Source of the DNA: Hyaloraphidium curvatum SAG 235-1
Taxonomy: Eukaryota; Fungi; Monoblepharomycota
Direction of reading: 5' to 3'
Assembly (NCBI GenBank): GCA_025558095.1
Contig: JAIVFI010000014.1
Coordinates: forward strand, 186,001-250,000
Length of the DNA: 64,000 nt
Each line of letters begins with the position of its first letter. Within the stretch, counting starts at the first letter, position 1. The notes under the pieces were generated by a model that made no database searches, was not told the origin of the DNA, and saw nothing but the letters and a program-made list of their open reading frames with translations. A program made the position numbers and the translations under genes. Positions 2,836 to 64,000 of this stretch are shown here, piece by piece.

Positions 2836-2968
2836 CTTCGCGGGCGGGCAGAATTTGGTTGTTGATCGATTCTCGCACGACCGGAGGAGTTGAGTTCCCG
2901 CCTCGCCGACTTGGGCCGCCGAAACCCTCTGTTCCTCTTCTCGGTGCCGGTGTCTGGATTTGGAAAGC

Positions 2969-12218: not shown

Positions 12219-12219
12219 C

Positions 12220-12230
12220 TGGTCCGACCT
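12220..12230 (+). other. Primer-binding site, tRNA-Tyr-like
   Basis: TGGTCCGACCT, 1 nt after the LTR, is complementary to ...AGGUCGGA-CCA. That implies C1:G72 and A73, the eukaryotic tRNA-Tyr identity elements. Confidence 0.65.
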
Positions 12231-12385
12231 CCGTGATCCTGCTCTCGGGTCTTCGACACCTCGTTCGACTTCAGTTTCGACTTCGATAATCCAAAAACAA
12301 CTTCGCCTGGCACCGGCGCTTGTCGACTGCCACTCTTTTCTGTCAACCGTATTCCGTCAACCAAGTTCATTCCCCTTCGCCAAAC

Positions 12386-14041: not shown

Positions 14042-14080
14042 CTTTGCCCTCAGTGCCGCACGGCCATAGGGGGGCAGAGA
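14032..14080 (+). other. -1 ribosomal frameshift signal (A AAA AAC plus downstream stem-loop)
   Basis: Heptamer 14032-14038 sits immediately before the gag TAG; the -1 frame is pol (KKLALPS). CTTTGCCCTC can pair with GGGGGCAGAG. Confidence 0.85.
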
Positions 14081-19089: not shown

Positions 19090-19159
19090 TAACACCAACG
19101 ACGTCTATCCGGTCACAGCACTACCATCTCTGTGCTCCGATCCCCGGCTTTTCACTGAC

Positions 19160-20145: not shown

Positions 20146-20284
20146 GACAGGCGCGGAGATCCCCCCAGCTCTTCTGGACCCTACGTCGCGATCCCCCGCG
20201 AGCGCTTTCGTCGACGCAATGGCGTACGGCCCTCGCTCGCGCCCCGTCCCCCGTGGCGGGGACTGGTGACCCGGTGTGCGGGCG

Positions 20285-20445
20285 AACTCGCGGTCGACTC
20301 GACTCGCAGTTGACTCGCGGTTGACTCGCGGTTGGCTCGCGGTTGACTCGCAAGTGACTCGCGAGTCACTCGCGAGTCGCTCGCAAGTCACTCGCGAGCG
20401 ACTTGCGATGCACTCGCGAGTTGCCTGCGCTTCGCACCATATAAG
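20285..20445. promoter_or_regulatory. Internal copy of the 11-bp repeat array plus TATAAG; putative bidirectional promoter
   Basis: About 12 units (GACTCGCGGTT, GACTCGCGAGT, CACTCGCGAGT...) at 20285-20421, with palindrome GTGACTCGCGAGTCAC at 20354-20369. TATAAG at 20440-20445, about the same spacing from the array as in the LTR. Confidence 0.7.
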
Positions 20446-20513
20446 CGGCGGACCACAGGAGGCCGCGGCCGCGGACTACGCACCCAACGTCGACCTCGCC
20501 GCTACCGTCTCCC

Positions 20514-21779: not shown

Positions 21780-21910
21780 GCCACCCTTCGGCCCTACACT
21801 CTCCAACATCTGTTGTCTCCACCTCGGCCTTCAACATCTTCTACTGCAAGCATGACGTCACTCCGCGGAGGATCTTCGATTTCGTGGCGCCGAGGGCGGC
21901 GCCTTCTTTT

Positions 21911-21921
21911 GGGTGGGGGCG
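21911..21921 (+). other. 3' polypurine tract
   Basis: GGGTGGGGGCG preceded by a T-run, abutting the 3' LTR. Confidence 0.8.
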
Positions 21922-22386
21922 TGCGAAGGTACAGGACGTCTGACATTCGGACAAGGGTATTTTCATTTTCGGTTCGGAGGCGTGGAGGCGTCGGTCCTCG
22001 CGATCGACTCGTGATCGACTCGCGATCGACTCGCGAGTGACTCGCGAGTCACTCGCGAGCGACTCGCAAGTGACTCGGCACAGCCACCCTCCTGGGATAT
22101 ATAAAGAGCGGGACATGTAACAGTACAATCTTGATCGCCAGTTGACTCTACGTGCTCTCCGTGTCGTTCGACCACCGTGCGGAACCCCGCCCGGCCGGAT
22201 CCTCGTTCTGAGAGCCCTTGGGACGCACCCCGGGAGACATCCCGTAACCTCTTTCCCCCGGCTACAGTCAAGTATCTTCAGCGCTGTTCGCTTATTCATA
22301 TTCAGGGCCTATCCGACCCGAAGAGCCGAGCGGGATTCGCGCGCCGGGTTAGAGCTTCAGGCCCGGTTCCGACCCGGACCGTCGCA
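21922..22386 (+). repeat. 3' LTR (465 bp)
   Basis: Identical by eye to the 5' LTR except for one fewer 11-bp unit. Confidence 0.97.
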
Positions 22387-28151: not shown

Positions 28152-31000
28152 ATGGCCTCCCCGCCGCCCGCCGGGGGCGGCGGCAAGGGCAAGGGCCGGC
28201 GACGCGTGTCGGAGGCGGCGCCGCCCGACCCGGAGGTTTTGGAGGAGCCTGCGGCGGCGGAGGTGCACGGGGGGGACGGCGAGCACGCGCAGCACGACCC
28301 GTTTCACGGCCCGTTCGAGGCCGAGTTCGGCGACGGCGAGCTGCTCGGGGTGGGTCGGCCGTTGATACGCCGGAATCTCGCGTCTAACTGGTGTTTAAAC
28401 CTGTGCGTGGGTGTGCGCTCGCGGAACCGCAGGCCGGGGAGGTCCCGCAGCACCTGCGCGCCATGGAGATGCACCAGTTCTACCGCGACCGCGCCGAGTG
28501 GTGGCACGCGCCGGAGCACCAGGAGTTCCTGCACTATGCCGACGCCGAGCGGGAACGGCGGGCGGCCGGCGGCGACCCGGCCGACGCGCTGCCGCAGCCC
28601 GGTCCGCCCGGCCCGCACGCCGTCGTCGCGCAGACGACGCTGTTCCACGGCGCGGGGCCCGCCGCGGACGTCGTCAACCAGGTCACGGCGCGCTACGAGC
28701 TGTACCGCGGCCGCGGGTCGGGCGTGCCGGGGGGCGAGACCGGCCTGGGCGAGCCGTACCCAACCGAGCGCAATCCGGACGTCGAGCGCGAGTGGCTCAT
28801 GCGGAGCTACAATCTCAAGCTCAGGCCGGTGCTGCCGAGGAACGGGTTCGTCGACGTGGAATCGATCAGGAAGCTGCGCTTCATCAGGGGGATGCCCGTG
28901 AAGCCGCCGCGGCCGCCGGCAACGGGGACTTTCGGAACCGGCGCCGTCAGGCCTGTTCTACCTGCCACTGGGACGTTTGGAGCGAGGCCGATCGGCGCAA
29001 GGCCTTTACCCGTCGGTGCAGGACCCGGCGTCGCCCGCCCAGCGGCTCCTGCCGGAGCGCCCGGCACTCCAGCAAACGCTGCGACACCCGGCGCCCCACC
29101 TGCTCGGCCGCCGATCGCACGTCCTCCACTTGCAAGACCGGCGACTCCAGGAGCGATACCCGCGAGGCCCGGCGTGCCCGGACGCCCGCCCGTTCGCGCG
29201 CCTGGCGTCCCCGTAGGCCCACCTGGGCAGCCTGGTGTTCCGTCACGCCCGCCCGGGCAACCTGGGGATCCCGTACGCCCGCCAGGACGACCCGGCGTGC
29301 CAGTTCGCCCCGTTGGACAGCCAGTGCAGCCTGGACAGCCCGGCCGACCGCCTGTGCGCCCCGTTGTCGCCGGCCGCCCGGGCGCACGCCCGCCTGGACC
29401 TCCCGGAGCACTTGGACGCCCGCCTGCCGCGCCTTTGAACCCCGCTGGACGGCCGCCTGGAGTCGTGGCTAGGCCGCCTGGTGCCGTTGGAAGGCCGCCG
29501 CAGGCCGTTGGCAGGCCTCGGCCGCCGCCTGCCGTCAGGCCGATCGGAGAGGACGCGGGCGATGCGGCGCAAGATGTGGACGTGCGGCCCTCGCTCCCGG
29601 GCCCGGTGGTCCAGTTGCCGGCCGACGGTGCGAGGCCGCCGGCCCGACCTCCGCTTGCGCGACCTCCGCTGGGACGGCCGCCTGCTGGGCGTCCGTCCGT
29701 CGCGGGGCGTCCCCCCGTTGCGCGGGCCCCGATGGCTCGTCCTCCGGCGGTGGCTGCCGGCAGTCCTCCGGGAGAGGCTGGTCGCCCGCCCGTGCCCGTT
29801 CCTGGTGCTGCAGCCAGTGCTGCACCTGGTGCTGCACCTGGCCTTGCGCCCGGCGCTGCTGCTGCTCCTGGCGTGGCACCTGCCGCTGCACCGGGGGCAC
29901 CACTGCCAGGGGCACCCGGAGAACCCGCGCCGCCGCCCGGCGTGCGTGTGCTCCCAAAGCCCCGCCTCGGTCGCCCCCCGAAGAACCCTCCCCCTCCAGG
30001 TGTCGAATACGTGCCCCGCCCGCGCCCCATGCCGGTCGTGCGGGGCCCGCCGCGCGCGGCGCCGACCGTGTTCCGGCCGCTCTCCGCCGGGCTGCCGCAG
30101 GACTCGTTCGCCGTCAAGCGCAAGGCGGAGCCCATGGGCACCGTTCCGCTGGGCGGTGCTAAGAGGCCGCGGTTGGACGGGTCGAGCCCGGCGAGGCCGC
30201 CGGCCACTGCTCCCGGTATGCCGAGGCCGCCCGTCGCTGCTCCCGGTGCGCCGCGGCCGCCCGTCGCTGCTCCTGGTGCGCCGAGGCCGCCCGTCAGTGC
30301 TCCTAGTGCACCGAGGCCGACCGTGGCTCCCTCGGCGCCCGCAGCACCTGCATCTGCACCTGCACCTGCAGCTGCCGCAGCTCCCACGGTGAATCATGTG
30401 GCTCCGGCACCTCGCCCTGCCGCGCAACCCGCCGCCCCGGCGCGGCCGCCCGCGGTGCCCACCCCGGCCGCGGCTTCCTCGCCTCCGTCTGCGACCCACG
30501 GCCCCTCCCCCCACGCCGCAGACTGGCGCTTCCGCCTGCGCTTCGGCGAGTTCGTGGAGGTGCTTTTTGACGAGCTCGGCGCCGCGTACCCGTGCCGCGC
30601 GCTGTGGTATGTCCCCGCAGAGCTTGACCCCGATCCCGAGTCGCCCCAGGCTGGCGAGCCGGCGAGCAAGGGCCATTTCCTGGTTGTTCACGCGATCGGC
30701 TGGCCCACCAAGGAGGACGCGTGGGTGTTCCTCGACCGGTACGGCCTCTCGCTCCTGCGCAAGCCGGGCGAGTCGCCCGATCTCGAGCCGATACCCCCGG
30801 ACAAGGCCGAGAAGGAGGCGTACCTGTTCGATTTCACCTCGCCGTCGTACGTCGAGGACGTGCGCGGGGCGACATGGGACGTGAAGCGGTCCGATCTGCC
30901 GAGCCTGCGGGGGGTCTGGGTGCGGCCCGGGTGGGACAGGGCGGTGGGGAGGCGCAAGTTCGTCAGCGGCAGGCAGAGGGGCAGGATCAGGCCGCTGTAG
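28152..31000 (+). CDS. Pro/Ala/Arg-rich protein with AT-hook-like motif and C-terminal Tudor-knot/chromo-barrel-like domain
   Basis: Intron at ~28350-28432. KPRLGRPPK; FGEFVEV...AYPCRAL...VVHAIGWPTKEDAWV resembles HYxGWxxxxDEWV. PRPPVAAPGA repeats at ~30220-30330. Confidence 0.7.
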
Positions 31001-48755: not shown

Positions 48756-50576
48756 ATGGCGACGCGGCCGCGGACGCTGGAGGAGTACATTGCGGGGGAG
48801 GATCCCGCACGAGTCTGTTGCCCACGATTCGCCTTCCCGGAAGGGGAAACTGACCCCTTGCGGCCCGATAGCGCCAGGGCGTCTTCCGCGCCATGTTCGC
48901 CCAGCTGGACAAGGACGGGTCCGGGACGATCCGGGTGGAGGAGCTGCGGCAGCGGCTGGACGAAATGTCGGCGGCGGCCAGGAAGTTGACCGGCAAGGGC
49001 GCGGACGAGTCGAGGCTGAAGCAGGTCGCGGAGGAGCTCATGGCCAAGGCCGACAGGGACGGCAGCGGCGAGATCACCTACCCCGAGTACGAGGCGTGGA
49101 TCCTGGACAGGGAGAGGAAGCTCTACGACATGTTCCTCTCGGTGGACCATGACCACTCGGGCCGGGTCTCTGTGGACGAGCTCGCCGCGGGCCTCGACAG
49201 GGCCGGGATCAGGGTGCCCGCCGGCGACATCGACCGCTTCCTCCGGCGGATCGACCGCGACGGGAGCGGCGACCTCGACTTTGCCGAGGTCCGGGACGCC
49301 TTCTTCTTCCTCCCCGGCTCGGTGGACCTCGCCTCGGCCTTCTCGTTCTACTACAACGTCTACGATCCCGCGGCAGCGAGCATCGACGGCATCGTCACGC
49401 TCACCCCGGCGCCATCGCAGGCCGGCGGCGCGCTGTCGTGGCTGCCGCCCGCGGCTCGGGTGTTCGTGTCGGGGGCGGCGTCGGGCTCGATTTCCCGGAC
49501 GATGACGGCGCCGGCCGACCGGTTGAGGACGTACTACATGACGTCGGTGACGAGCCCGCGGCCGGGGCTGGGCGGGCTGGCTGCCGACATCCGGGACGCT
49601 TCGGCGGCGATCGCGCGCGAAGGGGGCGCGAGGGCGTTCTGGCGGGGCAACTTCGTCAACGTGTGCAAGGTGATTCCGGAAACTTCGCTGTTCTTTGCCT
49701 TCAAGGAGGCGATGGAGGACCGCCTGAGGCAGCATCAGGGGCTCGGGGAGGGGCAGAACCTCTCCGGCCTCGCGAGGTTCATGATCGGCGGCCTCGCCGG
49801 CTCTTGCTCCATGTTCGTCATCTATCCCTCCGACACCATTCGCACGAGGATGATGTGCTTGGTGGCCGCGGATGCGGGGGCCTCTGGGGGCGGTAAGCCG
49901 GGGACCGGCCAGGCAAGGAGCTTCTCCACCCTCGCTCGCGGGTCACGGGGCTACGGGACCGCTGCTGCTGCCGCACCGCCCGCCAATGAATCTCTGGTGC
50001 TCCGCGTGTTTCGGGACCTTTGGAAGGACGGCGGGATCGCGGGCTTCTACAAGGGCGCCGTCCCTGCCTGCCTCTCCATCTTCCCGTACCAGGCATTGAA
50101 CATTACCGGGTACGAAGGAGCGAAGGACTTTTTCCTCGGACGCCGGGCGAAATCGGAGGGTGTGGACCCGATCAAGGTTCGCCTGAGGAACACGGAGCTG
50201 ATCGCGTGCGGGACATTCTCGTCGACGCTGGCGTCCATGTTCACGGTGGGTGATGGTACGACCACTTTTGCGTCCCCGGCTCTGATTCGCTCCCCGGATA
50301 GTATCCGGCGTATCTGATTCGTGTTCGGTGAGTTGGCCGTCGCCATGCTGTGCGGGCGATGTCCCTGACATCCCAACTCGCAGGCTGCAAGCTCAGGGCA
50401 CACCTTCCCACCCTCAACGATATTCCGGCGTCATGGACTGCATCCTCCGCACCTGGAAGAAGGAGGGGATCTGGGGGCTGTACCGCGGCAACGCGGTCGC
50501 ACTAATGAAGGGCATCCCCTCGACATCCCTCAACTTTCTAATCTACGAGGGCGTCAAGAAGTACCTCGGGAGCTAG
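48756..50576 (+). CDS. SAL1: Ca2+-binding mitochondrial carrier (ATP-Mg/Pi, SCaMC)
   Basis: Four EF-hands (DKDGSG, DRDGSG, DHDHSG, DRDGSG) plus carrier repeats (APADRLR, YPSDTIRTR, RLQAQGT...YSG). Confidence 0.9.
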
Positions 50577-50710
50577 GTGGTCAGCGCGGCACTGTTCGCT
50601 TTGGGGCGCGTTGCTTTCTTTGTGCGCGAACGGTCGACAAGACAGTAGGTTGCCGCAGAACTCGTACTTTCCACCTTGATACAGACATGCTGCGCTAGCA
50701 TCGACTCTCT

Positions 50711-51487
50711 TTACACGTGGAAGACGGATTTGCCCATATTGAGCACCGCGGAACGCCCAAAAGGTATGTACGACAAGCAATACCACGTGAACGCCAGGAA
50801 CTCAATGATCATGAATATAACCGATAGGATCACCGAGTTAAGCTGAGTTGCTTCCGTGTGAGCGAAATAGGCACGCGACTCGATGCGGCGCCCACCGTGA
50901 ACGCAACGACCAGGGTCGCGATGATGGACGTGATGAAGATGAGCGACGTGAGCCATCGGGTGGAGTCGAACACTGCGGAAATCAGCTTCCCGAGGGAGAG
51001 GGAGAGGAGGGGCCACCCACTCATTTTGAGCTGCTTCCATGGCCCCACGAGGAAGCCTGTCGCCGCCAGCGACAGCACGGTGCCGAAGGTGTAGAGTCTG
51101 GAGGTCGCAGAAGGGCCCAACGGGAAGTTGCGAGGTGAACAAGGGTCCTCCAGCGATTCCGAAAGAAATGGCCCCACATTGCGAACCCTCCGAGGTTCAG
51201 GAAAGCTAACGTAACTGTAGACTGTATGTCCCGCAGCGGTCAGACGGCCTCATGACGCGAGATTCGGGAATCCAACCAGGAGGGACACGACAAGGCCCAA
51301 GACAAGGCAAATTCCGAAGCCGTAGAGGCGGTGCGTTCTACTAAGCCCACAGAACGCGCCCTCGTCGAATACTGTGAAGCCAACGCGTCGTAAGGGTGGA
51401 GTTCGGCTGGATGTGCCATGGAGACGCCGCACCCGCCGAGTCTTCTCGCTCTGTTGCCGTTCCCCAAAAGGAGTCCCAATTGACCAT
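50711..51487 (-). CDS. Got1/SFT2-family vesicle transport protein, multi-exon
   Basis: LSRTHRLYGFGICL; LYTFGTVLSLAATGFLVGPWKQLK; WYCLSYIPFGR. Confidence 0.85.
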
Positions 51488-51696
51488 TTCTGTAGCTCGA
51501 CGTCCGAGGATTGGCAGGGGGTTGAGCTGGTGGGCTTGACGACGCGCGTCGTGATCGACGCGAGTTGCCCGGCGCGGAGTTTCACACCTTCGGCCCGCTG
51601 ACTGCCGCGGACACGTTCGCTTTAGTGTGCGCCATTCCAGCGTACGCGAACGCGCAGTGCGTGGAGATCTCCCGACTTCCGGACCAAGATTGAACG

Positions 51697-53109
51697 ATGC
51701 CGTCGCCAACGCCGTTTAAAGTGTCGTGTCCCCCGGAGCTTCTTGCCCGCCTCCGCTCCCGGCTGGACGATGTGGTGTACCCCAAGGCTACTCTCCCGGA
51801 TTCCGAGAGCTGGACCTACGGCATGCCTCCCCGCGTGCTTCGCAGGCTCGTGGAGTCGTGGAAGACCTACCTGAAGGACTGGTCCTCGTGGGAGCGCAAG
51901 CTGAACTCGGTCCCGCATTACAAGATGGACGTGAACGGCCTGAATGTGCACTTTATCCACTACCCGTCTCCCCGGGCCGACGCGATCCCGCTCCTGCTCA
52001 TCCACGGATGGCCGGGATCTTTCTTCGAGTTCCTCCAGATCATTAGGCCGCTCGCCGAGCCGGAAGACTCCAGCGCGCAAGCCTTTCATGTCGTCGTGCC
52101 TAGCCTGCCCGGCTACGGGTTCTCGGACAGTCCTACGAGGAAAGAGTACGCGATTGTTCAATCCGCGCGTGCATTTGATCAGCTCATGAAGGAACTAGGC
52201 TACCCGAAGTACAGTGGGTCCGCCTCAAGCGCCTCCATCTTCGCCTGCTGAAGCTGCTTCATTGCAGTCGCCCAGGGAGGTGATTGGGGCAGTTCGGTGT
52301 CGAAAGCTCTGGCCTTGGTCTGTTCCGACTCCTGTCGCGCCGTTCATGTAAGGAATACTCTGTTCTGCCCGCCCTCCTTCACTCATTTCGAGCCGCAGCT
52401 CAACATGGCACCTTTCTCGAGGCCGCCGAAGTCTGTCAAGATTGATCTGAACTCGGAGGAAGAAGCAAACTTGGAGCGCGGCCGGCGTTGGAGGCGGCAG
52501 GGCGTGGGCTACCAGGAGATTCAAGGGACCAAGCCTCAGACTCTCGGAGTTGCGATCTCTGACAGCCCCGTGGGCTTGTTGGCGTGGATCGGCGAGAAGT
52601 TGTACGTGCCCTGCGTTACTCTCGCGGCTTTCTCCCTCACCTTTTGTCCCTTGCTGCAGCCACGAATGGGTGGACCTTCGTGGAGGTGACGGCGACTTCT
52701 CGCCGACGGTGCCGGACGAGGCGCTCATTACCAATGTCATGATCTACCTCATCTCGTAAGTGTGGGGTACGCCGCTCTCTCGAAGAGAGTCTGATCGCGT
52801 GTGCATTGCAGCAACTGCGCGACTTCGTCGTTCATGCTGTACTACTGGTCCAGGGCCGGTCTGGACGCCAAGCTGCTCAATGAGTCCTTCGTCGAGATCC
52901 CGCTTGGCTTCTACGCCTTCCCTGGAGAGATCTTTGTTCCTCCCAAGGCGTGGGTTGCGTACTGGGCGAAGAGGCTCGTGCACTGGTCCGAGGCGCCTCG
53001 CGGCGGCCACTTTGCAGCTCTCGAGAACGGCAGCTTTTTGGTGTCAGACATCCGGCTCTTTGGGCGGAACCCCGAGGTCCGCAGCAGCCTTGGGCTAAGC
53101 AAATTTTGA
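51697..53109 (+). CDS. Epoxide hydrolase (EHN plus alpha/beta hydrolase), multi-exon
   Basis: LLLIHGWPGSF, VPSLPGYGFS, QGGDWG, QGTKPQT, DSPVGLLAWIGEK, RGGHFAALE. Confidence 0.95.
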
Positions 53110-53759
53110 TATCTGTAGCAATGGTTGAGCATACACGTCGAGCATCCCCTCTTCTCCCTCCCCTCTTCTCCTTCCCCTTCCCCCTCCTTCCTCTTTCCCA
53201 AGGATCGCGGCGTCCTTCTTGTACCCACCGGCGGCCGCTGCTTCGTCGATCGACATGAGCACGGTCTTGTCCGGCGCAACTCCGATGTCCCCGAGCACCC
53301 GGGACAGATCCTTGAGGACGCGCGCCTTCTCCGTCTCGGCATTGCGCCTTCCTCGGCGCGCGCTTGGCTTGCCGCCGTCGCCCTCCTTTTGGGCTTGCGA
53401 TTCTTCCCCATCGGTGTCGGCCGCGCGGGGAGGAGAAGAGTCTGTCCGGCAGGCTAGCGCTCGCGAATCCCGGACGCGATCGTCGGCCGCGTGGAAATGA
53501 AAAAGGATACGATGGAATGACGCGCCCGAAAGGCCACGCCGGGCAGTGCGTCGGGGAGCCGACGTGAAACGGAGCGCGGGACGATGGGACCGCGTCCATC
53601 CGCGTGAAGTCAAGATCGAACCGTACGGCGAATTCAACGCACGGCCGCCGCAACTACAAGTACGACGGCGTCAAGTTCTTCTCCGAGCCCTTCGCTTACG
53701 GCCCAATCGCGTCGCGGCACAGGTGCTCGTCGTGACGATGGACGCCAGATTTTTCCTCG

Positions 53760-54600
53760 CGCAGCGGCGGAGCCCTCCCTCCCTCGGTGGGTTCGACGGA
53801 CGAGAAGACGGCATTCCTCGCTGACTCTCTCCTCCCGTGTCCCTTTCATCTGCTTTGACGCCCGCTGCTGCCCACCCGAAGCCTGTCCCGCCGCTGGGTA
53901 TTCCCATGGCTCGGCCCGATTCGCTTCCTTTCCGTCAGCACGGCGCGCCTCCTTCGGGGGGACTGCCTGCGGAGCTTCGAGCGCCGCAGGTAGGACTGCC
54001 TGTGCGGCCTCGTCGCCGCCGGCGGGGACTTGGATTGCGGCACCTGCGCCGGTCTCCTCGTCTGGCTCCGTTGCGAATCGCATCGGATCGTCTCGTGCTA
54101 GCCGAGCGCATGGGCCCCGCGATGGGATGGGAAGGGATGGGAGGCTCCGCGGTTCTGGTGGTGGCGCCCTCTTACTCTTATTGCTGGACGAGATGCCGGA
54201 CGTCTGGACGTTTGTCGCTGCGCGGCGGAGCCCTCCCTTCCCTCGGTGGGTCCGACGACGGAGACGGCGCCATTCCCTGCTGACCCTCGCCGCCTGCATC
54301 GCTTTCGCCTGCCTTGACGTGCATGGCGGACCAACAAAGCACCTTGTCTGTCTTCGCCGACTGGCACGCTAGCCCATTCCCCGCGCGCGGAGCTCCTCCT
54401 TCGGGGGGACTGCCTACGGAGCTCCGTGCTTCGCTGGTAGGACCATCTGCCTGTGCGGCCTCGTCGCCGCCGGCGGGATATCGAGGTTTGCGGCGCCCGC
54501 GCTGCTTGCCTTGCGAAGCTCCGCGGCGCTCGGATCGGGTTGTGTCTTGCCGACCGAGCGCACGACCTCGGTGACGGGATGGAGGTGGGGTGGGGAGAGT
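53760..54600. repeat. Diverged direct duplication, period ~450 bp
   Basis: Shared blocks GCGGCGGAGCCCTCCCT..CCCTCGGTGGGT, CTCCTTCGGGGGGACTGCCT and CTGCCTGTGCGGCCTCGTCGCCGCCGGCGGG at ~53760-54120 and ~54220-54600. Confidence 0.8.
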
Positions 54601-56347
54601 CCGATCGAGATTCCTGCCCGCCGGGCTGTGGAATCTGTTGCCCTTCCGAGCAGCTTGCCCCGTTTGGTCCGCCGGGGACGAGGAGACGTGCCAACCTGAC
54701 CTTGGAGAACCCGGCCTGCTGCAGCGCGGTTTGTAGCGCGCCGGCGTCGACTACGTTGTCCGCTGTCCGAGAACCTTGGTGCCGGCGCCGGTACGTGGAG
54801 CAGCGTCGTGGTTGATTCGGGGACTCTTTGTTGACCTGGCCGCCGCAATCCTCAAACAGGCCAAAGTCAACTGCCCATCCCGTGCCCGGCGCGCGCCCAG
54901 GGAGCGCTGCGCTACTTTCCGCGGGACCTTTTATTGCTTTTGGGTCGCGATGCTGGCGTCGCGCGGGCAGGATTCGGCGGCTGCGCGGCGGAGGGCAAGC
55001 CTCGGCCGGACGCCGACGGCCGCGATCGTCTGCGGCGGCGCACCCTCCGCTCGCCGGCCGTCGGCCTGTACCGGCAGCAGAGTGACCCATGAACCGCAAG
55101 TGTGGGTGCCCGCGCCGCGATGCTCTCCCTGGTGTCGGCTGACTTCCATTTCCTGTTCGCTGGTTCCCCGGTTGCGATTCCCTCCGTGCGCAGTCCGCGG
55201 CCTGTTCCTGGAACTCTGCCGATGTACGAGCAGCGTGCGCTGCCCTGCCGTCGGGGACCTCGTCGTTTTGGACGGCCGGCAATGCGTTCCGCGTGGAGGG
55301 ACTTGTCCAGCGCGTTGCACCATCTCGTAACCGCAGTCGTCGGGCGTGGAAGCCTCAGACATCTGGACGACGTTTTCTGAACCTGGCGCCATGTGTTCTG
55401 GGATATGTATCGTGTGGAGTGGCGGTCGTTGCTGGGCTCGTGGGCTCGTACGGGCGACCCTGCCCCAACCTGCCTCGCCCTGGCCAGGGCCGAGGTTGGC
55501 GACATACACAGGATGCCGATCCCATGGCTTCTAAATGCTGGATGAACTGGGCTTAGGGATGGCGAGCTCATGGCTTTGGACATGTCGTTGGCACGCCCCA
55601 TCGCACCCGGACAGGTTCCTGCGTCATTGTTCACGGACGTTCCTTGGATCTCGTCTCCTGCAGCGAAGTGGCGCTAACCCGTAGCTCCTGTTGCTTGAGA
55701 AGCCATTACAACGTGCTCTATGTAGGATTTGCCGGGGGATGTGGGATTCTGGACGGCGCGGAGGCGGATCTTTATTCTTCTTGCTCCTCTAGCGCATGTT
55801 CTATAGCTTCTCCCTTTGGATTCTTGATTTTGGTGGATTCCCGGCCCAATGGTGCACGTGGAGGAGCTCGCGGCCGGGACGGGGTCGGACTTGGCGGGGT
55901 CCGGGTTCCGGACTGTGGCGGGCGGCCGGCCGGCTGTCAACAGAGGAACGCGGACTTTTTTCTCGCGTCGCCCCACACGCACCGTCGATCCTGCTACCGT
56001 TAGGCGTGAGTTTCTGGGCCTGCGCGTCGCGCTCTACCGCCGGAGGGCGTGGCGCCGCTCCGGAGCCGGGGGTTCGGCTGCCGGGACGGCCGGGCGCCTC
56101 TCGGGCCGCCCCTTGCCGGCGGCCGACGCCGGAGGCGGGCGCTCCCCTCGCCGCGGCAGTGCACTCTTTGGTGCATGATGCGTGGCTGCGGGGCGTCGGC
56201 GTGCCCGGCGTGGCCCCGGTTCCCGGCGGCGCTCGGGCCTCCAGGGCGCGGTGTGCCTGGTCCCGGCTAAACTCGGTATCCCGCCCCAGATCTCTACTGC
56301 CGACGCATTTGATGCTATTTTGAACGCCTTTACTCGCGATCTCGGTC

Positions 56348-59300
56348 ATGGGCGGGGTACAGTCGGTGCAGGAGCCGCCGCCCGCGCCGGCCCCCGCCGC
56401 GCAGACTCCGGCGGCCGGTGGAGGAGCACAGGGCGAGGCGGGCGCCGCGCAGCCGCCCCCGGTGCCCCTGGCCGCCATGCTGCGGGACTTTGATTCGCGC
56501 TACGTGGCATCGGAGGACCACACGGCGCTGCTGCTCGAACTCACCGAAACGTGGTCGGAGCTTGACACGGGGGCGGAGCTTGACACGGGCCGGCCCCGGC
56601 GCTTCTACCCCAACCGTCTGGCGAGGGGTTGGATACACCAGGGGAGGAAAGATGCGGAGAGGGAGATTTGCGTGAAGATGGCGCAGGCCGCAGCCAAGGG
56701 CGACCGCAGCCAGGTCGACTGGTATCCCGTCTACGCAGGCATCCGCACGCGGAGGGTTGGCCACCTGCTCGTCGCCTACCGGGAAGCGCAGCTCGTGGAT
56801 CAGAAGAAAGCGCTGCGCAGGCTCGCGGTTGAAAAGAAGATCGCGGAGCGCGACGCGGCCAAGGCGGCCAAGGAGGCCGAGCTGCGGGCCGCCGACGAGA
56901 CCAAGAAGGAGGCCGACGCCGCTGCAAAGGCCAAGGCCAAGGCCGAGGTCGAGGCCGCGGTTCAGGCTGCGCGTTGCGCTGTGCATGCGCCGCTCTCGAG
57001 GCCGTCGTGCGGGCCGAAGGCTGCCGTCGACTTTGCCGCCTCCGTGCGCCGGGAGGTGGAGGCCAACGCCGCGGCTGAGCGCCGCAAGAAGGATGCCGAC
57101 GCCGCCGCCGCCAAGCGCCGCGGAATTGGGGCCAAGTCCCCTGCCGAGATCCGGGCGCTTGATGAAGCGGCCGCCGCCGCTGCCGCCGAGCTCCTCGCTG
57201 CCGAGGCCGCAAGCACCCCCGCCGAGCAGATCCCGGGCCTCTGGCCCAAGCGCCGCCCGCGCTTCCGGCCGGCCGGACCCTGGCGCTCCGACCCGCGCGG
57301 ATCCCGCCGCGCAGAGGCGGACCCCGAGGACGACGACCCGTGCTTCGTGGTCAACGTCAAGCTGCCCGTGAGGGAGGCCCAAGGCCACGACGCCATCAAC
57401 GTGGTCAAGCTCCCCGCACGCGGGTCCAACGTCATCGCCGACCTGCAGGTGTGCTCGAGTGCGCTGGCCTTTGATTTGTGGCCATGATTTGATGCTGCCG
57501 TCCTTCCTTCCAGGTCGAAGTCGCAAAGCGGTCCCGGTGCGGCGTGGCCCACGTCTCCATCTCGTCGGACAGCGCCGGCGACCTGAAGCTCCTCCCGGCC
57601 GCGTCGCTCGCCCAGTGCGGCATCGGCCCCGGCTCCACCGTCTACGCGTGGCGCCCGCGCAAGATCGTGATCGACGTCGAAGTCTTCCCCATGGGCGACG
57701 ACCGGAACTCGTTCACCAAGGCCGTGCACGTGTGCATTTCCTCGGACGCGCCCATCGCCGATCTCAAGGTGGGGTGCCCCCGTCGCGTCAGACCGCCTCC
57801 GCGCTCACAGTCCTCCCCGCTCTGTTTCCTCTGCTTCCGCAGCGCCGCGTCACCGTCCGCACCGGCGCCAACCCCGCCGTCTTCTACCTCCGAAAGCGCG
57901 ACGGCAGCAAGCCGCTCAACGAGGGCGGCACGGTCGGCGACCAGCTCAAGCACGGCGACGTCGTCGTGGCCATGGTCCGGCTGCGGGGCGGGGCACCGAA
58001 GAGGAGGCGCGCCGAGGGCGACGGGGATGGGGATGAGGAGGAGGAGGAGGCGCGCAAGAAGTCCGCCGGCGAGGCCGCGCACGGCTCCGGATCTGGCGCC
58101 GCGGCGGGATCTGGCGCACCGACCGGCGGTGCTGCGACGGCTTCGGGATCGGCCTCGACTGCTGCTTCAGGATCGGCTTCTGCTTCAGGATCGGCTCCTG
58201 CTTCTGCTCCGGGATCGGCTTCGGGATCCGGCGGCGCGGGCGGCACCAGCGGCACCGGCGGCCAGCGTGCCGCGACCGGCATCCCCCAGTACGGCACCGC
58301 AGAGGCGCAGCCGGTGCGCTCGGGCGGCGGCAAGAAGAAGAAGAAGCACTCCAAGGGCGGCGGGGCCCTCACGGAGCAGGAGGTGGAGGTGCTCGGAGGC
58401 AAGAGCGGGTCGGGCAAGAAGGACACGAACAAAGCAATTCAACCGTGCCTGTCGCGTTTCCACTCTGGAGCACCCTACACGCTCCAACTGGAGAACCTTT
58501 TGGGCCGACGCGGCATCGCGTTCGACGACCTGTTCATCTGCGTGGACGCGCCGGTCGTGCTTCACGTTCTGTTCGCCGGCGACCGCGGGCACCTTGCCCG
58601 CGAGGCGCTCGCTCCGCTCTTCTTTGGGCTACCCGAAACCATGGCGATCCCTACCGACGAGCAGCAGGTCGAGCCTTGGGCTCGCGGGTGCCTGCGGAAG
58701 CTAGCGGAGCTCATGGTCGAGGAGCTCCACCGCCTCCTGCCGCGGACGGCCGGCTCCGTGGCGCGCAAGGACTCGGTGTGCATCGTCTTCGAGGCCAGCT
58801 CCGGGAAGAACATGCGGAAGCAAGCTCGGACGCCCGCCGACGGCAACAACCAGGCCCCGCCGCCCCTGCTTCCCGTTGTCGCGCCCTGGGTGGAGGACGC
58901 CGAGGGCTGGGAGATCGTCGCGGCCTGCTCAGACGTCGACGGCGGGGATGTCGGGACCGATGGGGGCGCGCAGGGCATCTACTCGCTCCACAAGCAGCCC
59001 TTCGAGGCCGACCGCCGCGGCGCCACGTCTTCCTCTGGCAGCAACAAGGCGATACGCCTGTTCCTCAACGTCGGAGGCACACCCGGCCCGGACGGCCTGC
59101 TTCGGGCCTTTAACCTCGGCGGCGGTGAGCTCGTTTGCCCGCGGCGGCGGCGCCTGGACTGACGCACCTCCCCACCTGCCAGGGCTCGCGGTCAAGAAGG
59201 CGGGCCACGTCGCCAAGACCCTGCGCCTCGGCGTCGCGCACCTCTCCCTCCTCGCGCAGCAGGTCGGCTCCCTGCTGCCGGACGGTGCTCTTCTCGGCGG

Positions 59301-62300
59301 ACCGTGCCGTGTCGTATTTGGCGTGGACGAGGCGGATCCTCACATCATCCGGAGATGCTCGGCCGCGATGGCGGCGCCCGGCGCCGACAAGCGACTGTGC
59401 ATGCCGCTCACGTCCGACCGCGACCTGCTCTACATGAGCGGCAGCAACGACGTCCACGGCATCATCGACCTCTTCACCGACAACAAGGGTGTCTACTTGA
59501 AGCGGGACGTCCTGAAGGAGCTCGACGCGTGGCCTGAGGAGCTCAAGACCTCTGTCCTCGTCGCTGGCAGCCACAACACAATCGGGAACTTCATCGTGAG
59601 TTGGATGCGTGCGGCGGACGGTGCTCCGAGCCAACCCCATTTGCCCTCTTCCAGGGAGCGGACAAGGTGCGGAGGCTGCTGCGCGAGGGCAGAAAGGCGA
59701 TCGAGGACGCTTTGGAAGGCGGCACCACCGACTACATCCGCGCCGCGCTCGACCTGCTCGCGTCCCACCGCGAGTCGAGCCCCAAGACCAAGACCTCGAT
59801 CCGCGCCCAGCGGGACGCCATCGTCAAGGTCTACTACGAGACCGAGGGCAAGGACCCCGACGGGCGGCCGCTCCGCATGCTCGAGATCCCCCTGGATCGG
59901 CCGCCGTCTGGCAAGGCGCTCTTCCCGGACGGCAAGCCGCTCGCCGAGGGCTTTGCGACGGCGGGGCTGTCGCCGAAGCAGCGCGAGCTGCTGACAACGG
60001 AGCAGCGCGAGCTCGAGGCGAAGGTTGCGGCTCTGAAGAGGGCTCTCGGCGAGGTGCAGACCAACTCGGCGCTGAAGAAGCTGAACAACGAGCTCGCACT
60101 CATGAGGCGGAAGCTGGCTGAGAACCTGGTGCGGCCTGGGTTGCGGGACCGGTACATGGTGCTCAAGGTGAGCTGCATGCGAGTGCGCGGTCCCGGTGAC
60201 GGCAGGGCTGACGTGCGACGGACCCGGCAGGCTGCCATTAAACAGCCCGCGCAGCTCGTGCCCGCACCCGAGGTGCAGGCAGCGGCGGCGGCGAACGCGG
60301 GCCTTCCTTTCCTCCCGCTCCAGCGTCCCGCCGCCCCGTACGTGAACCTCGAGCTCGGCCCGGAGCTGGCCAAGATGATGGACCTCATCGTCAAGGCCGT
60401 CAAGGGTAAGCAGAAGCGGTACCGAACCAACGCCGCCGCCAGGAAGGAGCGCGAGGAGACCGTCGCCGACCAGGCAAAGAACTCGGTCATGATCGTCTAC
60501 GACGAGGAGGGGATTCCGACCATGCACGGCAGGGTGAAGGTCGATGTGCTGGTCGCCGCCCCCGCGACGGGTGGCGGTGCGACGGCCGCTGCCGGCGCCG
60601 CGCCTACGCCTATGGACGTGGACTCTGGGGCAGGCGCCGCCGGGAGCGTCGCGGCCGGCGGTGGAGGACCCGCCGCGCCGGATGGCGGGGCGCAGCTCTC
60701 CGCAGCCCCGGACGTCGAGATGCAGGACGCGCCCGCCGGGGCGCCGGCGGGGACCGCGGACGACGACGACGAGCCGCCCGAGGACGAGGAGGTGGTGCGG
60801 AGGCGGCGCGAGGAGAAGGGCAAGTCGAAGCCCGCGGCCACGACCGCCGAACCCGCCGACGCTGCCATGGATCCGGTGGAGAGCATGCCGCTCGACGTCG
60901 GCGACGAATCCGAGGACGACGGCAGCGAGTACGTGGACGAGGAAGGTGCCGGCGAGGCCGACGAGAGCGAGGAGAGCGACGCGGGCAGCAAGGGCGGCCG
61001 GCGCAAGGGCCGGAAGGGAGACGGGGACTCGGGCAAGAAGAAGAGCACGTGGCTGGGCAAGGCGACGATCGCCGGCCCGATCTTGGAGAACATGGCAAGG
61101 CCCGGGTTCGTTGAAGCCATGCGTTTCGCGTCGCGCGAGCTGCAGAAGAAGGGCGAGGCACCCGACCGTTCCGCCATCCAGCACTTCCTCGAGGTCAACG
61201 ACTTTATTCCGTACACTTGGGTGCCGACGGCACGGCGCGCGGCGCAGCTGAAGGAGCTGCAGTTTGCGGACAGGGACTTCCGCGAGCGGGGGAAGCTCGC
61301 CGCGTTCTTGCGCCTTGCGCTCACGACGGATGAGCGGCTCATGATGCTCTGCTACGCGGTGACGCGCATCGCGATGGACGCCTTCCTGTCCAACTCGGAG
61401 GAGGTGCGGACGGCATCTTTCCCGCACCCCTGGCCGAAGAGGGTCAGGGCAACGGCCAAGGAAGTGCAGGATGCAGCATTCTCGGCGACCGTCACCGCCG
61501 TGCGCCTTTCGGGGCGCGAGACCCTGCGAGGTGACCAAGAGGGATCCGCCATCGCCAACTTCCTGGACGATCTCCGCGGAGAGCTCCTGGAACTTGGACT
61601 GGAGGAGTTTGCAGACCCCGTTGCCATCCACGCGGCCTTTGAGCGGAGGGCTACAGACTCTGCGGACAAGGAGGCCGTGATCAAGAAGTTCCCCCGGCTC
61701 TGCCGGGTCTACTCGCACATCGCCAAGGACGAGCTCGGCCTCGAGTTCAGGAAGAACACAACCTCGGACAAGGAGATTGCCGACAAGGATAAGTCCCTCT
61801 TCCTGCACCGCACCATCCTCCGCCTCGCGCCCTTCGCCTCGTGGGCCCCGCGAGCACCCGTGGAGGAGGGTTCCGCTCTCGGAATCCCCGAGGAGCTGGA
61901 CCTCGCTGCCTTCTTCCGCCCGGCCCCCCCCGTCGACGAGGGCAACGCCGTCGGGGACCCGCAGCCGCCGCCGGCTGCGGCTCCCACCTCCGCGGAGCTC
62001 AAGTTCACGGCGGAGCCCTTGACCCCGGCGCGGAGGCAGGAGTACCTCGACGCTACGCGCAATGGACACCTCGCGCAGGCCATGCTGGGCGTGCTGTCGG
62101 CGATGGAGGCGGCTGCCGGGCTCGGGGGCAACGAGTTTATGTCGCGCGTCGAGGCGGTTTATCGCACGACTACGATCGGGGGTTTGGAGCCGCGGCACGG
62201 GAACCCGGCCGACGCCAATGGCCGCTGGGTCTACGGGGACCTGTCCGAGATCGTGGACCCGCGGCTGCCGACGACCGAGATCTGCGCCAACTGCCCCAAG

Positions 62301-64000
62301 GGCGACGTGGTACTGGGCTCCCGCCGCTACTTCCTTAACGAGACCAACAGGATCCTCTTTACCGCCCTGGACACCACCGCTTTGGACCGGCTTCGAGGTC
62401 TGCTGGCCGAGACGAAGGTAGGCTCTCCTACGCCATGCACGCGCGCATGTCTGATTCGCGCACGGCGGTGTCGCAGGACGAGGCGACAAGGACGGCCATC
62501 GGCAATGACATCGCCGTCATCGAGTTCGAGCTGCAGAAGCTGCACGCCCGCGACACGCAGCCCGCCGACTTCGACGATGCGCACTGGCCCAAGGCGATCC
62601 GCGCACGCGCTCGCGTGATGGGCAACCTGGTCTTCACGGATGCCAGCAAAGTGTGCCCCCTCCTATTCGTGGGCATCGCGCGCACGCTGCCTCGGATGCG
62701 TTTCCTGACAGCCCTTTTCCGCCCAGATCGACGGCGACGGTGATTGTTGCTGTTGCGACAGCATGTCGAAGATGATGGGAGGTGGCGACTGGGACGCCGA
62801 CGTTGCGAGGCGCGCTCTGCTCCTTCACCGCCGGATCCAGCTGGAGCACCTCCGGCTGGAATTCGCAGCCTTCCGCCCGACCTTGGTCATCGGCCTGGGG
62901 TCGAACATGGCCCGCATGCTGTGCTCCACGAGCGGAAGCCCCCACCTCCCCAAGCGCGCGCTGCCGTTCGCCACCGGCGGCATCCTCAACGTCGAGGTCG
63001 GCGTGGGCGGCTCCGATCTCGCGACCGCCTTCCAGCTCGCGGTCGCCCCGCACCCCGTGGCGTGCGCACTGCTGCCCTCCCATCTGGCCGACTCGGTCAC
63101 CGCCCTCTGCCTCCTCCCGAACCCTGCCAAGGCGGACGCCGGCGCGGTGTTCGACCCGTCGTCGTACTCAGCGGCGGCGGCACTCAACGCGGCATCGCAG
63201 CTCGCAGCGCACACCATCTTTCCGCAGGTCTTTGCGTTCTGGCCCGAGCGGGGCACCGAGGGCGTCACCCACCTCGAGTCGCTCCCCGCGGCTCACCAGC
63301 CGATACCTGAGTCCTTTATTCCGAGCTGGCTCATTTCGACATGCGCAAACATCTTCACCTCGCGGTTCAAGGAGAAGTTCAAGGACCGTTTCCAGGCCTA
63401 CCTCGAGATCTTTGCCGCAAATGGCCTCGGCGACCTCGCTTTCGGCAAGTCCCGTTCGCACCTGGACTCGGCCACCCGCGCGCGGATCGGGCAAGGCGCG
63501 CCCGCACCGCCGGCAGGCCTCCTGGGCGCGCTGGCCTACCGGGCGCGGTGTCTGCTGGTCCCGCGGTCCGGTCAGGCGGCGTCTGCTGCGGTCGCCGAGG
63601 ATGGGGATGAGGTTGCCGTGCTGCTCGAGGACGACGGGCAGGATGCGGTGGCGCTGACGCCGCGAGAGAGCGTGTCCGCCATCTATGGCCTGAAGCCGCA
63701 GGTTGCGGATATCGTCAAGGATCTGGATGGCCTCGGGCGGCATTTCTTGGACCGTTCGTCGGAGAGGACGCGCCCCAGCACCCAGTCCCTCCTGGATGCC
63801 GCGCGCGACCTTCTCTTTGGAGCTGCGGCCGGCGCCGCGCGCCTCCGTCCGATCGCCGACATCCGCCGCGACGTCGGGCTCGGCGAGGTTGCGTTGACGG
63901 ACTTGAAGCTGGACGATAAGCTTGGCTTTGTCCGGAGCGCCGTCGTGGCCGGGGACCTGAACCAGCGGCTCACGCCGAGGCTCCACGCGGGGGATCGCTT
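56348..64000 (+). CDS. Giant multidomain protein (~2400 aa in window, runs off the edge): MGxxxS, coiled coil, 2 ubiquitin-like domains ending RLRGG, NLS, XPG/FEN1-like PIN nuclease, UDG-like domain
   Basis: Exons 56348-57448, 57514-57768, 57843-59124, 59183-59595, 59655-60167, 60231-62417, 62477-62650 and 62727->64000, all joined in frame through GT-AG introns of 59-76 nt. Confidence 0.8.

What the first reader, a model, noticed from the sequence alone, without database searches (positions are those of the whole stretch)
58500..63060. XPG/FEN1-like nuclease and UDG-superfamily-like domain in one giant protein
PIN-like motifs occur in order: FICVDAP, CIVFEASSGK, GVDEADPHI, LTSDRDLL, then an H3TH-like VAGSHN..FI|GADKVRRLL that lacks the usual Asp. 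About 900 aa later, ICANCPKG..SRRYFLNETNRIL, LVFTDASK, LRLEFAAFRPTLVIGLGSNMARML and VAPHP follow the spacing of family-4/5 UDG motifs, with a CCCC run near the usual KC position. A base-recognition fold coupled to a 5' nuclease suggests a modified-base-directed repair, defence or toxin system, or a large DNA element. I do not recognise this architecture. The C-terminus lies beyond the window.
Basis: inference. Interest (0 to 1): 0.8.

Follow-up and report, generated by a model that had tools for sequence, protein, structure and literature searches.

The report
Giant Fanzor with flap-nuclease, glycosylase-like head
A spliced, transcribed gene, likely of an early-branching fungus, encodes one 2,987-residue protein that joins a predicted flap-nuclease domain and a likely DNA-glycosylase-fold domain to a Fanzor-type nuclease (predicted to be RNA-guided), inside what is likely a mobile element; this would be a natural version of fusions that genome engineers build by hand.

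Summary
The gene is real. Spliced contigs confirm all seven introns, and the exons match the first 2,362 residues of a 2,987-residue database protein exactly. The part beyond the window carries two Zn2Cys6-type clusters and a Fanzor1-like RuvC/zinc-finger end (profile match to TnpB, E 6e-6 to 9e-6). Its D-E-N triad resembles that of the active GtFz1, so I dropped my first 'nuclease-dead' reading. The PIN/H3TH head has six acidic residues in FEN-like register, kept in paralogs, but no significant profile hit. The UDG-like domain has four weak leads to the UDG superfamily (Mug profile E 0.003, Atlas 0.90, non-significant TDG and UDG4 fold rows); the fold is likely, glycosylase activity is untested. 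A 2,449-residue paralog is collinear at 33% identity; the two named paralogs are Hyaloraphidium curvatum. A second genomic copy joins window ~53,508 to 61,701, an 8.2-kb internal deletion that points to a mobile element of at least 12 kb. Best reading: a transposase-less Fanzor1 element whose nuclease carries its own end-processing and base-reading domains. FEN-Fanzor fusions appear in unchecked scan notes; I found neither fusion in the papers searched. No guide RNA, target or element end was identified.

The parts
53110..56476 (.). 3.4-kb non-coding left arm of the likely element, between the epoxide hydrolase gene (stop at 53109) and the start codon; true left end not located (at or left of about 53,390)
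   Evidence: No frame has host-like codon bias in 53100-56399 (best per-codon score at most 0.01); epoxide hydrolase by Pfam; 119 loose letters precede the junction in the second copy
53489..53507 (+). Left side of the deletion junction: in a second genomic copy a near-identical stretch is joined directly to position 61701
   Evidence: Same 30-nt loose end in the RNA run X1 and the DNA run X2; a 19-nt pattern from it matches once in the window, 0 of 100 shuffles
53764..54130 (+). Copy 1 of a ~455-nt non-coding tandem duplication
   Evidence: 71% identity over 374 columns, E 2e-39; spacings 447-459; folding z -1.6; no Rfam match at gathering score
54222..54582 (+). Copy 2 of the tandem duplication
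   Evidence: folding z +0.1
55065..56072 (+). Spliced, apparently non-coding RNA or long 5' leader (intron 55102-55193)
   Evidence: 938-nt contig of X1 with a GT..AG joint; no codon bias
56477..64000 (+). Coding sequence, exons 56477-57448, 57514-57768, 57843-59124, 59183-59595, 59655-60167, 60231-62417, 62477-62668, 62727 to beyond the window (an in-frame upstream ATG lies at 56348). A further 625 residues lie beyond the window: WED-like strand (~2456-2500), two six-Cys clusters (2519-2545, 2552-2579), RuvC-I D2688, RuvC-II E2903, C4 finger 2910-2935, RuvC-III N2953
57332..57987 (+). Two ~85-residue segments (286-372, 373-458) that look ubiquitin-like by eye; recalled resemblance, not confirmed
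   Evidence: No Pfam hit; the two are not significantly alike (72 of 1000 shuffles score as well); the last ~28 residues align with P0004 at 25%
58431..59685 (+). FEN/XPG-like PIN domain plus H3TH (residues 606-985); acidic residues D644 (58545), E726 (58791), E886 (59329), D888 (59335), D915 (59416), D917 (59422); H967 (59572) at the H3TH Asp position
   Evidence: All six kept in P0004, and the four that P0003 covers are kept there; the last four and the H3TH turn fall in register with PolA 5' nuclease, but E 0.1
61701..61701 (+). Right side of the deletion junction (residue 1636); 8,192 nt are missing in the second copy, including the PIN domain
62211..63122 (+). UDG-superfamily-like domain (residues 1806-2070) with a helical-hairpin insertion (~1861-1915) and a Cys-rich loop; invariant N1848, N1851, D1929, C1934, Q1976, E1978, H2047
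   Evidence: 46-60% identity in the core to paralogs against 25-36% in the flanks; profile, Atlas and fold leads
63123..64000 (+). Helical region (residues 2071-2362+), position compatible with a Fanzor REC lobe; fold unassigned
   Evidence: Model of P0002 has pLDDT mostly 60-88 here but only generic helical-bundle matches

Best explanation
This is one spliced, transcribed gene for a 2,987-residue protein ending in a Fanzor1-type RuvC, lying in a likely mobile element of at least 12 kb, and it likely works as an RNA-guided DNA cutter that carries its own predicted flap nuclease and a predicted base-reading (UDG-fold) domain. Shown: the gene structure, the domain order in two 33%-identical paralogs, the TnpB-type C-terminus, and an internally deleted second copy. 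Inferred steps: (1) an omega-RNA from the element's right end would load into the Fanzor part and guide it to DNA next to the insertion site, that is, to alleles lacking the element; (2) the D2688-E2903-N2953 triad would cut, as the D-E-N triad of GtFz1 does; (3) the FEN-like head would trim 5' ends or flaps at the break, pushing repair towards copying from the element-bearing allele and standing in for the transposase I could not find; (4) the UDG-like domain would flip and read, and possibly excise, a base in the opened target; (5) the Zn2Cys6-type clusters would add DNA binding. My odds by step: Fanzor1-derived 0.9, mobile element 0.75, FEN-like fold 0.9, UDG fold 0.8, RuvC active 0.65, glycosylase active 0.35.
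For: Splicing and ORF. C-terminus against a profile of 17 bacterial TnpBs: whole protein E 1.4e-4 (reversed control 0.045), domain level 83% / E 9e-6, best of 44 tile comparisons at E 6e-6. Fanzor hallmarks of Yoon 2023 are met in both P0001 and P0004: D-P-G at RuvC-I, and Glu six residues before a C4 finger. The RuvC-II/finger/III block is the most conserved part (84 of 120 identical). GtFz1 is active with Asn as third residue, and SpuFz1 D606N is more active (PMC11423790). P0001 and P0004 are collinear over residues 430-2987. UDG: best of 44 tile comparisons with Mug at E 0.0034; Atlas top named hit is the UDG superfamily at 0.90, with 10 of 10 family hits in one family or clan. Deletion junction in both RNA and DNA runs, on a different contig if P0002 is that copy (937,392 vs 752,701 nt).
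Against: No omega-RNA, TAM, target, terminal repeat, target-site duplication or right end was seen; they would lie beyond the window, and no genome was held. No Pfam, NCBIfam or PDB sequence hit supports any of the three enzyme domains. The PIN profile match is not significant (E 0.08-0.1). Both structure models are low confidence (pLDDT 37.9 and 45.8). Foldseek gave no hit at E <= 0.001 and ranked a tyrosine phosphatase above TDG; UDG4 scored only Z 3.9, rmsd 5.4, 106 aligned, tied with phosphatases. The Mug match covers mainly one motif, and the best unrelated tile reached E 0.014. The RuvC-III residue is ambiguous: hhalign puts D2940-R-D2942 of P0001 on the TnpB motif, and P0004 lacks the second Asp. 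The RuvC-I to RuvC-II spacing (215) exceeds the 120-160 used for TnpBs by Yoon, though it lies within Bao and Jurka's 125-275. Only 4 family members were found, 2 of them lacking the RuvC. A segmental duplication could also explain the second copy.
Confidence: 0.5

Rival explanations
1. RNA-guided base editor or eraser: the Fanzor part mainly targets, and the UDG-like domain excises a modified or deaminated base at the guide-chosen site, with the FEN-like domain removing the flap in long-patch repair. The protein would serve the element (for example by stripping silencing marks) or the host.
For: The UDG-like core is as conserved as the PIN core, with invariant polar residues at the expected pocket positions (N1848, D1929, H2047). 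The best leads are Mug/TDG. Glycosylase followed by flap nuclease is the order of long-patch base-excision repair (established knowledge). The third RuvC residue is Asn in both full-length paralogs.
Against: Asn at that position does not mean inactive, and single triad changes gave false 'dead' calls in the TldR study. The first motif is atypical, and P0003 lacks about 10 residues there. No activity data.
Confidence: 0.2
2. Active FEN-Fanzor element in which the UDG-like region is a passive passenger: a non-catalytic nucleic-acid-binding module, or not a UDG fold at all.
For: All UDG tests are individually weak. Unchecked scan notes describe FEN-Fanzor fusions in other fungi and do not mention a glycosylase.
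Against: Four methods converge on the same site and superfamily, and pocket-like residues are invariant in 3 or 4 diverged paralogs.
Confidence: 0.2
3. Domesticated, immobile host gene family; the second copy is a segmental duplication with a later deletion.
For: Host-like introns (58-74 nt), GC3 0.86 against 0.78-0.90 in five host genes; paralogs only 32-33% identical; low copy number; no transposase or terminal repeat seen.
Against: The family is confined to one lineage in 1.84 billion representatives (3 hits). A 3.4-kb non-coding arm travels with the gene in the second copy. Internally deleted copies are typical of Fanzor elements (ghost loci).
Confidence: 0.07
4. Crinkler-like toxin or effector polyprotein with a ubiquitin-like header and several nuclease payloads (recalled from the literature, not read here).
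For: Two N-terminal segments look ubiquitin-like by eye, and P0004 starts with a similar short stretch.
Against: The ubiquitin-like call is unconfirmed; the Fanzor end and the deletion derivative fit a mobile element better; basic patches suggest nuclear localisation (sequence).
Confidence: 0.03

Closest known systems
Fanzor1, especially GtFz1 (D-E-N triad), SpuFz1 and PpFz1 (PMC10432273, PMC11423790; passages read)
   Same: C-terminal RuvC with D-P-G, shifted Glu six residues before a C4 finger, third residue Asn as in GtFz1; introns as in many Fanzor genes (PMC10530073); no transposase found, and an internally deleted copy reminiscent of Spu-1 ghost loci.
   Different: 2,987 residues against 633 for the SPu-1 protein; about 2,400 residues of extra head with PIN/H3TH and UDG-like domains; two Zn2Cys6-type clusters before RuvC-I; the deleted copy keeps more than 2 kb of coding sequence; omega-RNA, TAM and ends not identified.
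MCi-2 Fanzor1 elements of Mucor circinelloides (Bao and Jurka 2013, PMC3627910; passages read)
   Same: Large fungal Fanzor elements without terminal inverted repeats or a complete transposase, whose copies share the 3' part and differ in the 5' part.
   Different: The passages read mention no PIN or glycosylase domain; MCi-2 copies are 99% identical with 11-12-bp target duplications, whereas here copies are 86-92% or 33% identical at protein level and duplications could not be tested.
FEN-like PIN nucleases: FEN1/XPG, PolA 5' nuclease (PMC5499597; passages read)
   Same: Six acidic residues in the described order, followed by an H3TH-like turn.
   Different: Second acidic residue is Glu, the H3TH Asp is His, long insertions, and fusion to a Fanzor; no significant profile score.
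UDG superfamily, family 2 (Mug/TDG) and family 4
   Same: Order of motifs (first strand and pocket loop, second strand with Asp then Cys, helix-Pro-strand-Gly, last strand then His-Pro); predicted strand/helix order of the C-terminal half.
   Different: A ~55-residue helical hairpin and a Cys-rich loop are inserted; the first motif is atypical; Asp stands where family 4 has Asn (family-6-like, recalled); it is embedded in a 3,000-residue protein.
TldR nuclease-dead TnpB repressors (PMC10705468; passages read)
   Same: TnpB-family protein with a changed catalytic triad that might act as a guide-directed platform.
   Different: TldRs are defined by two or more triad changes; here there is only one, and it is of a kind known to be active.

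Membership tests
Fanzor1 / TnpB superfamily | C-terminal RuvC homologous to TnpB | tested here: met
   hhalign to 17 TnpBs: 83%, E 9e-6; best of 44 tiles, reversed controls 0.028 or worse
Fanzor1 / TnpB superfamily | D-P-G at RuvC-I and Glu six residues before the C4 zinc finger (Yoon 2023) | tested here: met
   D2688-P-G; E2903; C2910, C2913, C2932, C2935; all kept in P0004
Fanzor1 / TnpB superfamily | D-x(125-275)-[TS][TS]-x-x-C4 finger-x(5-50)-RD (Bao and Jurka 2013) | tested here: inconclusive
   Spacing 217 and T2906-S2907 fit; P0001 has R2941-D2942 but P0004 does not; the invariant position is K2952-N2953 in both. Asn there occurs in the active GtFz1
Fanzor1 / TnpB superfamily | WED and REC lobes | tested here: inconclusive
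   A conserved strand at 2456-2500 resembles a WED motif (recalled); the model of P0002 was too poor to test
Fanzor1 / TnpB superfamily | omega-RNA at the right end; TAM- and guide-dependent DNA cleavage | not testable with these tools
   Right end lies beyond the window; no genome held; no relatives found in viral or metagenome contigs
Fanzor1 (vs Fanzor2) | Placement in the Fanzor1 clade; no IS607 serine recombinase | not tested
   No Fanzor sequences were in hand for a tree; Fanzor1 is inferred from fungal host, introns and long insertions
FEN-like PIN nucleases | Six acidic active-site residues (four Asp plus two Asp/Glu/Gln) | tested here: met
   D644, E726, E886, D888, D915, D917, kept in paralogs; one Asp is Glu; the last four are in register with PolA, the first two are placed by motif only
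FEN-like PIN nucleases | H2TH/H3TH motif after the PIN core | tested here: inconclusive
   Aligns in register with the PolA motif, but the Asp is His in 3 of 3 paralogs and E is 0.1
FEN-like PIN nucleases | PIN fold with helical arch by structure or significant profile hit | tested here: inconclusive
   No Pfam or PDB hit; PIN tiles were the best 2 of 30 against PolA but E 0.08-0.1; this domain was not folded; no eukaryotic or archaeal FEN1 profile was in hand
UDG superfamily | Sequence-profile or embedding similarity | tested here: inconclusive
   Mug E 0.0034, family 4 E 0.03-0.05, families 1, 5, 6 and the GQAP group not significant; Atlas 0.90 top named hit and 0.82 at rank 12; no Pfam hit
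UDG superfamily | alpha/beta UDG fold | tested here: inconclusive
   pLDDT 45.8; TDG in 9 of 48 listed Foldseek rows, best E 0.47; UDG4 4zbx Z 3.9, rmsd 5.4, 106 aligned
UDG superfamily | Base-excision activity | not testable with these tools
   Needs assay
TldR | Two or more changes in the D-E-D triad | tested here: not met
   One change at most
Zn2Cys6 binuclear cluster | C-x2-C-x6-C-x5-12-C-x2-C-x6-9-C spacing (recalled pattern) | tested here: met
   Cluster 2 (2552-2579) fits exactly, cluster 1 has x5 at the second gap; Pfam Zn_clus below cut-off (E 0.49); the two clusters are alike, 0 of 1000 shuffles score as well
DNA transposon / mobile element | Dispersed copies with shared ends, target-site duplications or empty sites; transposase | tested here: inconclusive

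The most novel reading that the evidence does not exclude
A natural RNA-guided base-excision machine in a eukaryote: one polypeptide in which a Fanzor finds a guide-specified site, a UDG-fold glycosylase removes a base there and a flap nuclease processes the strand, and which is used by a transposase-less element to move or to escape silencing.
Probability: 0.2. Interest if true: 0.95.

Novelty: new variant of a known kind. Interest (0 to 1): 0.78.

Why it matters
Characterised Fanzors are stand-alone nucleases (the SPu-1 prototype has 633 residues), and how Fanzor-only elements move is an open question. A Fanzor that carries a 5' flap nuclease offers a testable answer: the element may spread by guided cutting plus end processing instead of by a transposase. 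The UDG-like domain adds a step I found in no paper searched; if active, it would be a natural RNA-programmable glycosylase and a source of linker and domain designs for editors. The gene is intact and transcribed, and two diverged full-length paralogs identify the residues to mutate.

Tried and rejected
Nuclease-dead Fanzor (my reading): rejected after reading that GtFz1 is active with Asn as third residue. Several separate genes: rejected by spliced contigs and collinear paralogs. An intron starting at 62651 (my first model): wrong, the RNA gives 62669-62726. Pfam on 7 of 7 exon pieces, and Pfam/NCBIfam on P0001: nothing at cut-off. PDB sequence searches: nothing significant. Homolog searches: none in the 805-2,295 range for the middle region, none for the RuvC region among proteins under 1,642 residues; both scored only about 8,000 candidates, so these blanks are weak. 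No relatives in viral contigs (164 pattern hits, 0 confirmed), metagenome contigs (213 and 252, 0 confirmed) or phages. Two AlphaFold models from 4-sequence alignments were low confidence; VIA lists were filled by generic helical bundles or hairpins, so absence of a family there means nothing. The tandem ~455-nt repeat as a guide-RNA scaffold: both copies share some hairpins, but z-scores are -1.6 and +0.1, no 120-nt window in 53050-56349 passed z -2, and Rfam gave nothing above chance; not supported, not excluded. No terminal inverted repeat stood out in 50000-64000. The two ubiquitin-like-looking segments are not significantly alike. Run X1 is not on record as RNA; its spliced contigs are why I treat it as RNA, and contig depths were not used to rank expression. 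The tile test against PolA covered 15 of 22 tiles (time limit). Literature: 'Fanzor' with 'XPG' as whole words gave 0 papers; the listings showed no title or abstract start describing a natural PIN-, FEN- or glycosylase-Fanzor fusion. No supplements were read; the Fanzor catalogues in the supplements of PMC10432273, PMC10530073 and PMC10711439 may list these proteins.


Full report
1. The observation. The window is compact, GC-rich eukaryotic DNA with short introns. No genome was held. Two sequencing runs hold the region. Run X1 is spliced: one 4,113-nt contig spans 57331-61742 and skips five GT..AG introns, and other contigs skip 62418-62476 and 62669-62726. The model built on these seven introns has no stop and equals the first 2,362 residues of P0001, a 2,987-residue NCBI protein found with the middle exon. 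So this is one transcribed gene, and 625 residues lie beyond the window.

2. After the window come a conserved strand (2456-2500), two six-Cys clusters (2519-2545 and 2552-2579; alike to each other, 0 of 1000 shuffles; Pfam Zn_clus below cut-off), and a TnpB-type end. Against a profile of 17 bacterial TnpBs (picked from the 30 loci), the family profile scores E 1.4e-4 over the whole protein at 2606-2972 (reversed control 0.045), 83% / E 9e-6 at domain level, and E 6e-6 as the best of 44 tile comparisons. The Fanzor hallmarks in Yoon 2023 (passages) are present in P0001 and P0004: D2688-P-G, and E2903 six residues before a C4 finger. The third catalytic position is ambiguous. hhalign places D2940-R-D2942 on the TnpB motif, but P0004 lacks the second Asp, and both proteins have an invariant block with N2953 just before the last helix. 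I first read this as nuclease-dead. Xu 2024 (passages) reports that GtFz1 has Asn there and cleaves, and that SpuFz1 D606N cleaves better; the TldR study warns that single changes give false dead calls. An active D-E-N triad is therefore the better reading.

3. Family. A phmmer search of the last exon against 1.84 billion representatives gave 3 hits: P0002 (661 aa, 86-92% identical, truncated), P0003 (1,772 aa) and P0004 (2,449 aa). P0003 and P0004 are labelled Hyaloraphidium curvatum; I infer that the window comes from this species or a close relative. P0004 is collinear with P0001 over 430-2987 at 33% identity, and P0003 over 859-2536 at 32%. Conservation with P0004 peaks at the PIN core (38-51%), the UDG-like core (46-50%; 48-60% with P0003), the WED-like strand (53%) and the RuvC-II/finger/III block (84 of 120), against 25-36% in linkers and helical regions. 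The architecture has therefore been kept over long divergence. No relatives were confirmed in viral contigs, metagenome contigs or phages.

4. PIN/H3TH. Matelska 2017 (passages) defines FEN-like domains by six acidic residues plus an H2TH/H3TH. Six such residues are present and kept in P0004, and the four that P0003 covers are kept there: D644, E726, E886, D888, D915, D917. Against 24 PolA 5' nuclease domains (24 of 30 loci passed the trimming step) the last four residues and the H3TH turn align in register, but E is 0.1; the two PIN tiles were the best of 30 comparisons, at E 0.08-0.1. The H3TH Asp is His in 3 of 3 paralogs. I had no FEN1/XPG profile and did not fold this domain, so the call rests on register and conservation.

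5. UDG-like domain. E. coli Mug alone aligns best, in a 2,551-column profile, at 1819-1865 (E 0.39). A five-sequence Mug profile gives E 0.024 over the whole protein and 0.0035 at domain level (reversed 0.54); family 4 gives 0.047, and families 1, 5, 6 and the GQAP group are not significant. Over 44 tile comparisons the three best Mug scores overlap this site (0.0034, 0.0043, 0.011), and the best unrelated tile reaches 0.014. Masking the insertions did not strengthen it. The Atlas returned UDG-superfamily clusters as the top two named hits for the P0003 domain (0.90 and 0.89; 10 of 10 family hits in one family or clan; such scores arise for 4-10% of shuffled proteins), and one at rank 12 (0.82) for the window's last exon. 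The model of the P0004 domain is poor (pLDDT 45.8). Foldseek found nothing at E <= 0.001; human TDG fills 9 of 48 listed rows (best rank 3, E 0.47) behind a tyrosine phosphatase, and VIA gave family-4 UDG Z 3.9, rmsd 5.4, 106 aligned, tied with phosphatases. No single test is decisive, but four methods point to one superfamily at one site; I put the fold at 0.8. Invariant N1848, N1851, D1929, C1934, Q1976, E1978 and H2047 suggest a conserved pocket, but activity is untested.

6. Surroundings. Both runs hold a diverged second copy from 61,701 on, and both show the same loose end before 61,701. That end matches window ~53,479-53,508 (by eye; a 19-nt pattern occurs once, 0 of 100 shuffles). The second copy thus joins the non-coding left arm to residue 1636, lacking 8,192 nt, and carries a 2-nt deletion at 62539. 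P0002, on another contig, is probably its product. The duplicated unit therefore runs from at or left of about 53,390 to at least about 65,900 (64,000 plus 1,875 coding nt), if the copy extends to the gene's end; P0002 itself reaches only the first Cys cluster. The left arm has no coding bias, holds a ~455-nt tandem duplication at 71% identity and gives a spliced + strand RNA. The repeat copies share some hairpins, but folding statistics and Rfam give no support for a structured RNA. No terminal repeat or transposase was seen. Internally deleted copies recall Spu-1 ghost loci, and shared 3' parts recall MCi-2. A segmental duplication is not excluded.

7. Mechanism. Shown: gene, domain order, TnpB-type end, deleted copy. 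Inferred from the families: an omega-RNA from the right end guides the Fanzor part to empty alleles; the D-E-N RuvC cuts; the FEN-like head trims 5' ends or flaps so that repair copies the element; the UDG-like domain reads or excises a base in the opened target; the Cys6 clusters add DNA binding. I give this whole chain 0.5. Rivals are a guided base-excision role (0.2), a passive UDG-like passenger (0.2), a domesticated immobile gene (0.07) and a Crinkler-like effector (0.03, recalled).

8. Novelty. 'Fanzor' with 'XPG' gave 0 papers, and the other listings and the passages read in nine papers describe no such natural fusion. I read passages only (plus part 1 of 7 of Bao and Jurka) and no supplements, where these proteins may be catalogued. 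Unchecked notes of this scan report FEN-Fanzor fusions or pairs in other fungi (7 findings in at least 2 genomes). These suggest a wider class but are not evidence, and none of the 3 findings holding both 'Fanzor' and 'glycosylase' describes a fusion. Verdict: a new variant of Fanzor1 with an unusual multi-enzyme head; interest 0.78.

Noticed in passing
window 11743-22386: Ty3/gypsy LTR retrotransposon: gag-like ORF 12290-14041 and pol 13603-19089 (protease, RT, RNase H, integrase by Pfam; chromodomain-like tail by eye), 476-nt direct repeats at 11743-12218 and 21922-22386 (97.7% identical), and an extra coiled-coil ORF at 20445-21779 inside the repeats
   Followed up: partly
window 53764-54582: ~455-nt non-coding tandem duplication (71% identity) with conserved blocks, including a UUCG-loop hairpin in both copies; function unknown, lies inside the likely element
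   Followed up: partly
window 55065-56072: Spliced + strand RNA without a convincing ORF upstream of the giant gene; long leader or non-coding RNA
   Followed up: partly
window 62657-63022 and 63153-63466 (X2 records 14 and 16): DNA contigs with a 1-nt deletion at 62915 and with 50 differences in 314 nt hint at a third close copy, or at low-depth errors
   Followed up: no
window 1-3486 (minus strand): One long frame joins a class-V aminotransferase (cysteine-desulfurase-like) domain to a PP-loop ATP_bind_3 domain, suggesting a fused tRNA thiolation enzyme
   Followed up: no
window 20287-20421 and 21997-22077: Short self-similar repeats shared between the retrotransposon interior and its right terminal repeat, in both orientations
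   Followed up: no
window 28388-31000: 870-residue Pro/Ala/Gly-rich open frame with a short globular-looking tail
   Followed up: no
P0003 residues ~1065-1075: This paralog lacks about 10 residues at the first UDG-like motif, and its annotation stops inside the first Cys cluster; gene-model error or true decay
   Followed up: no
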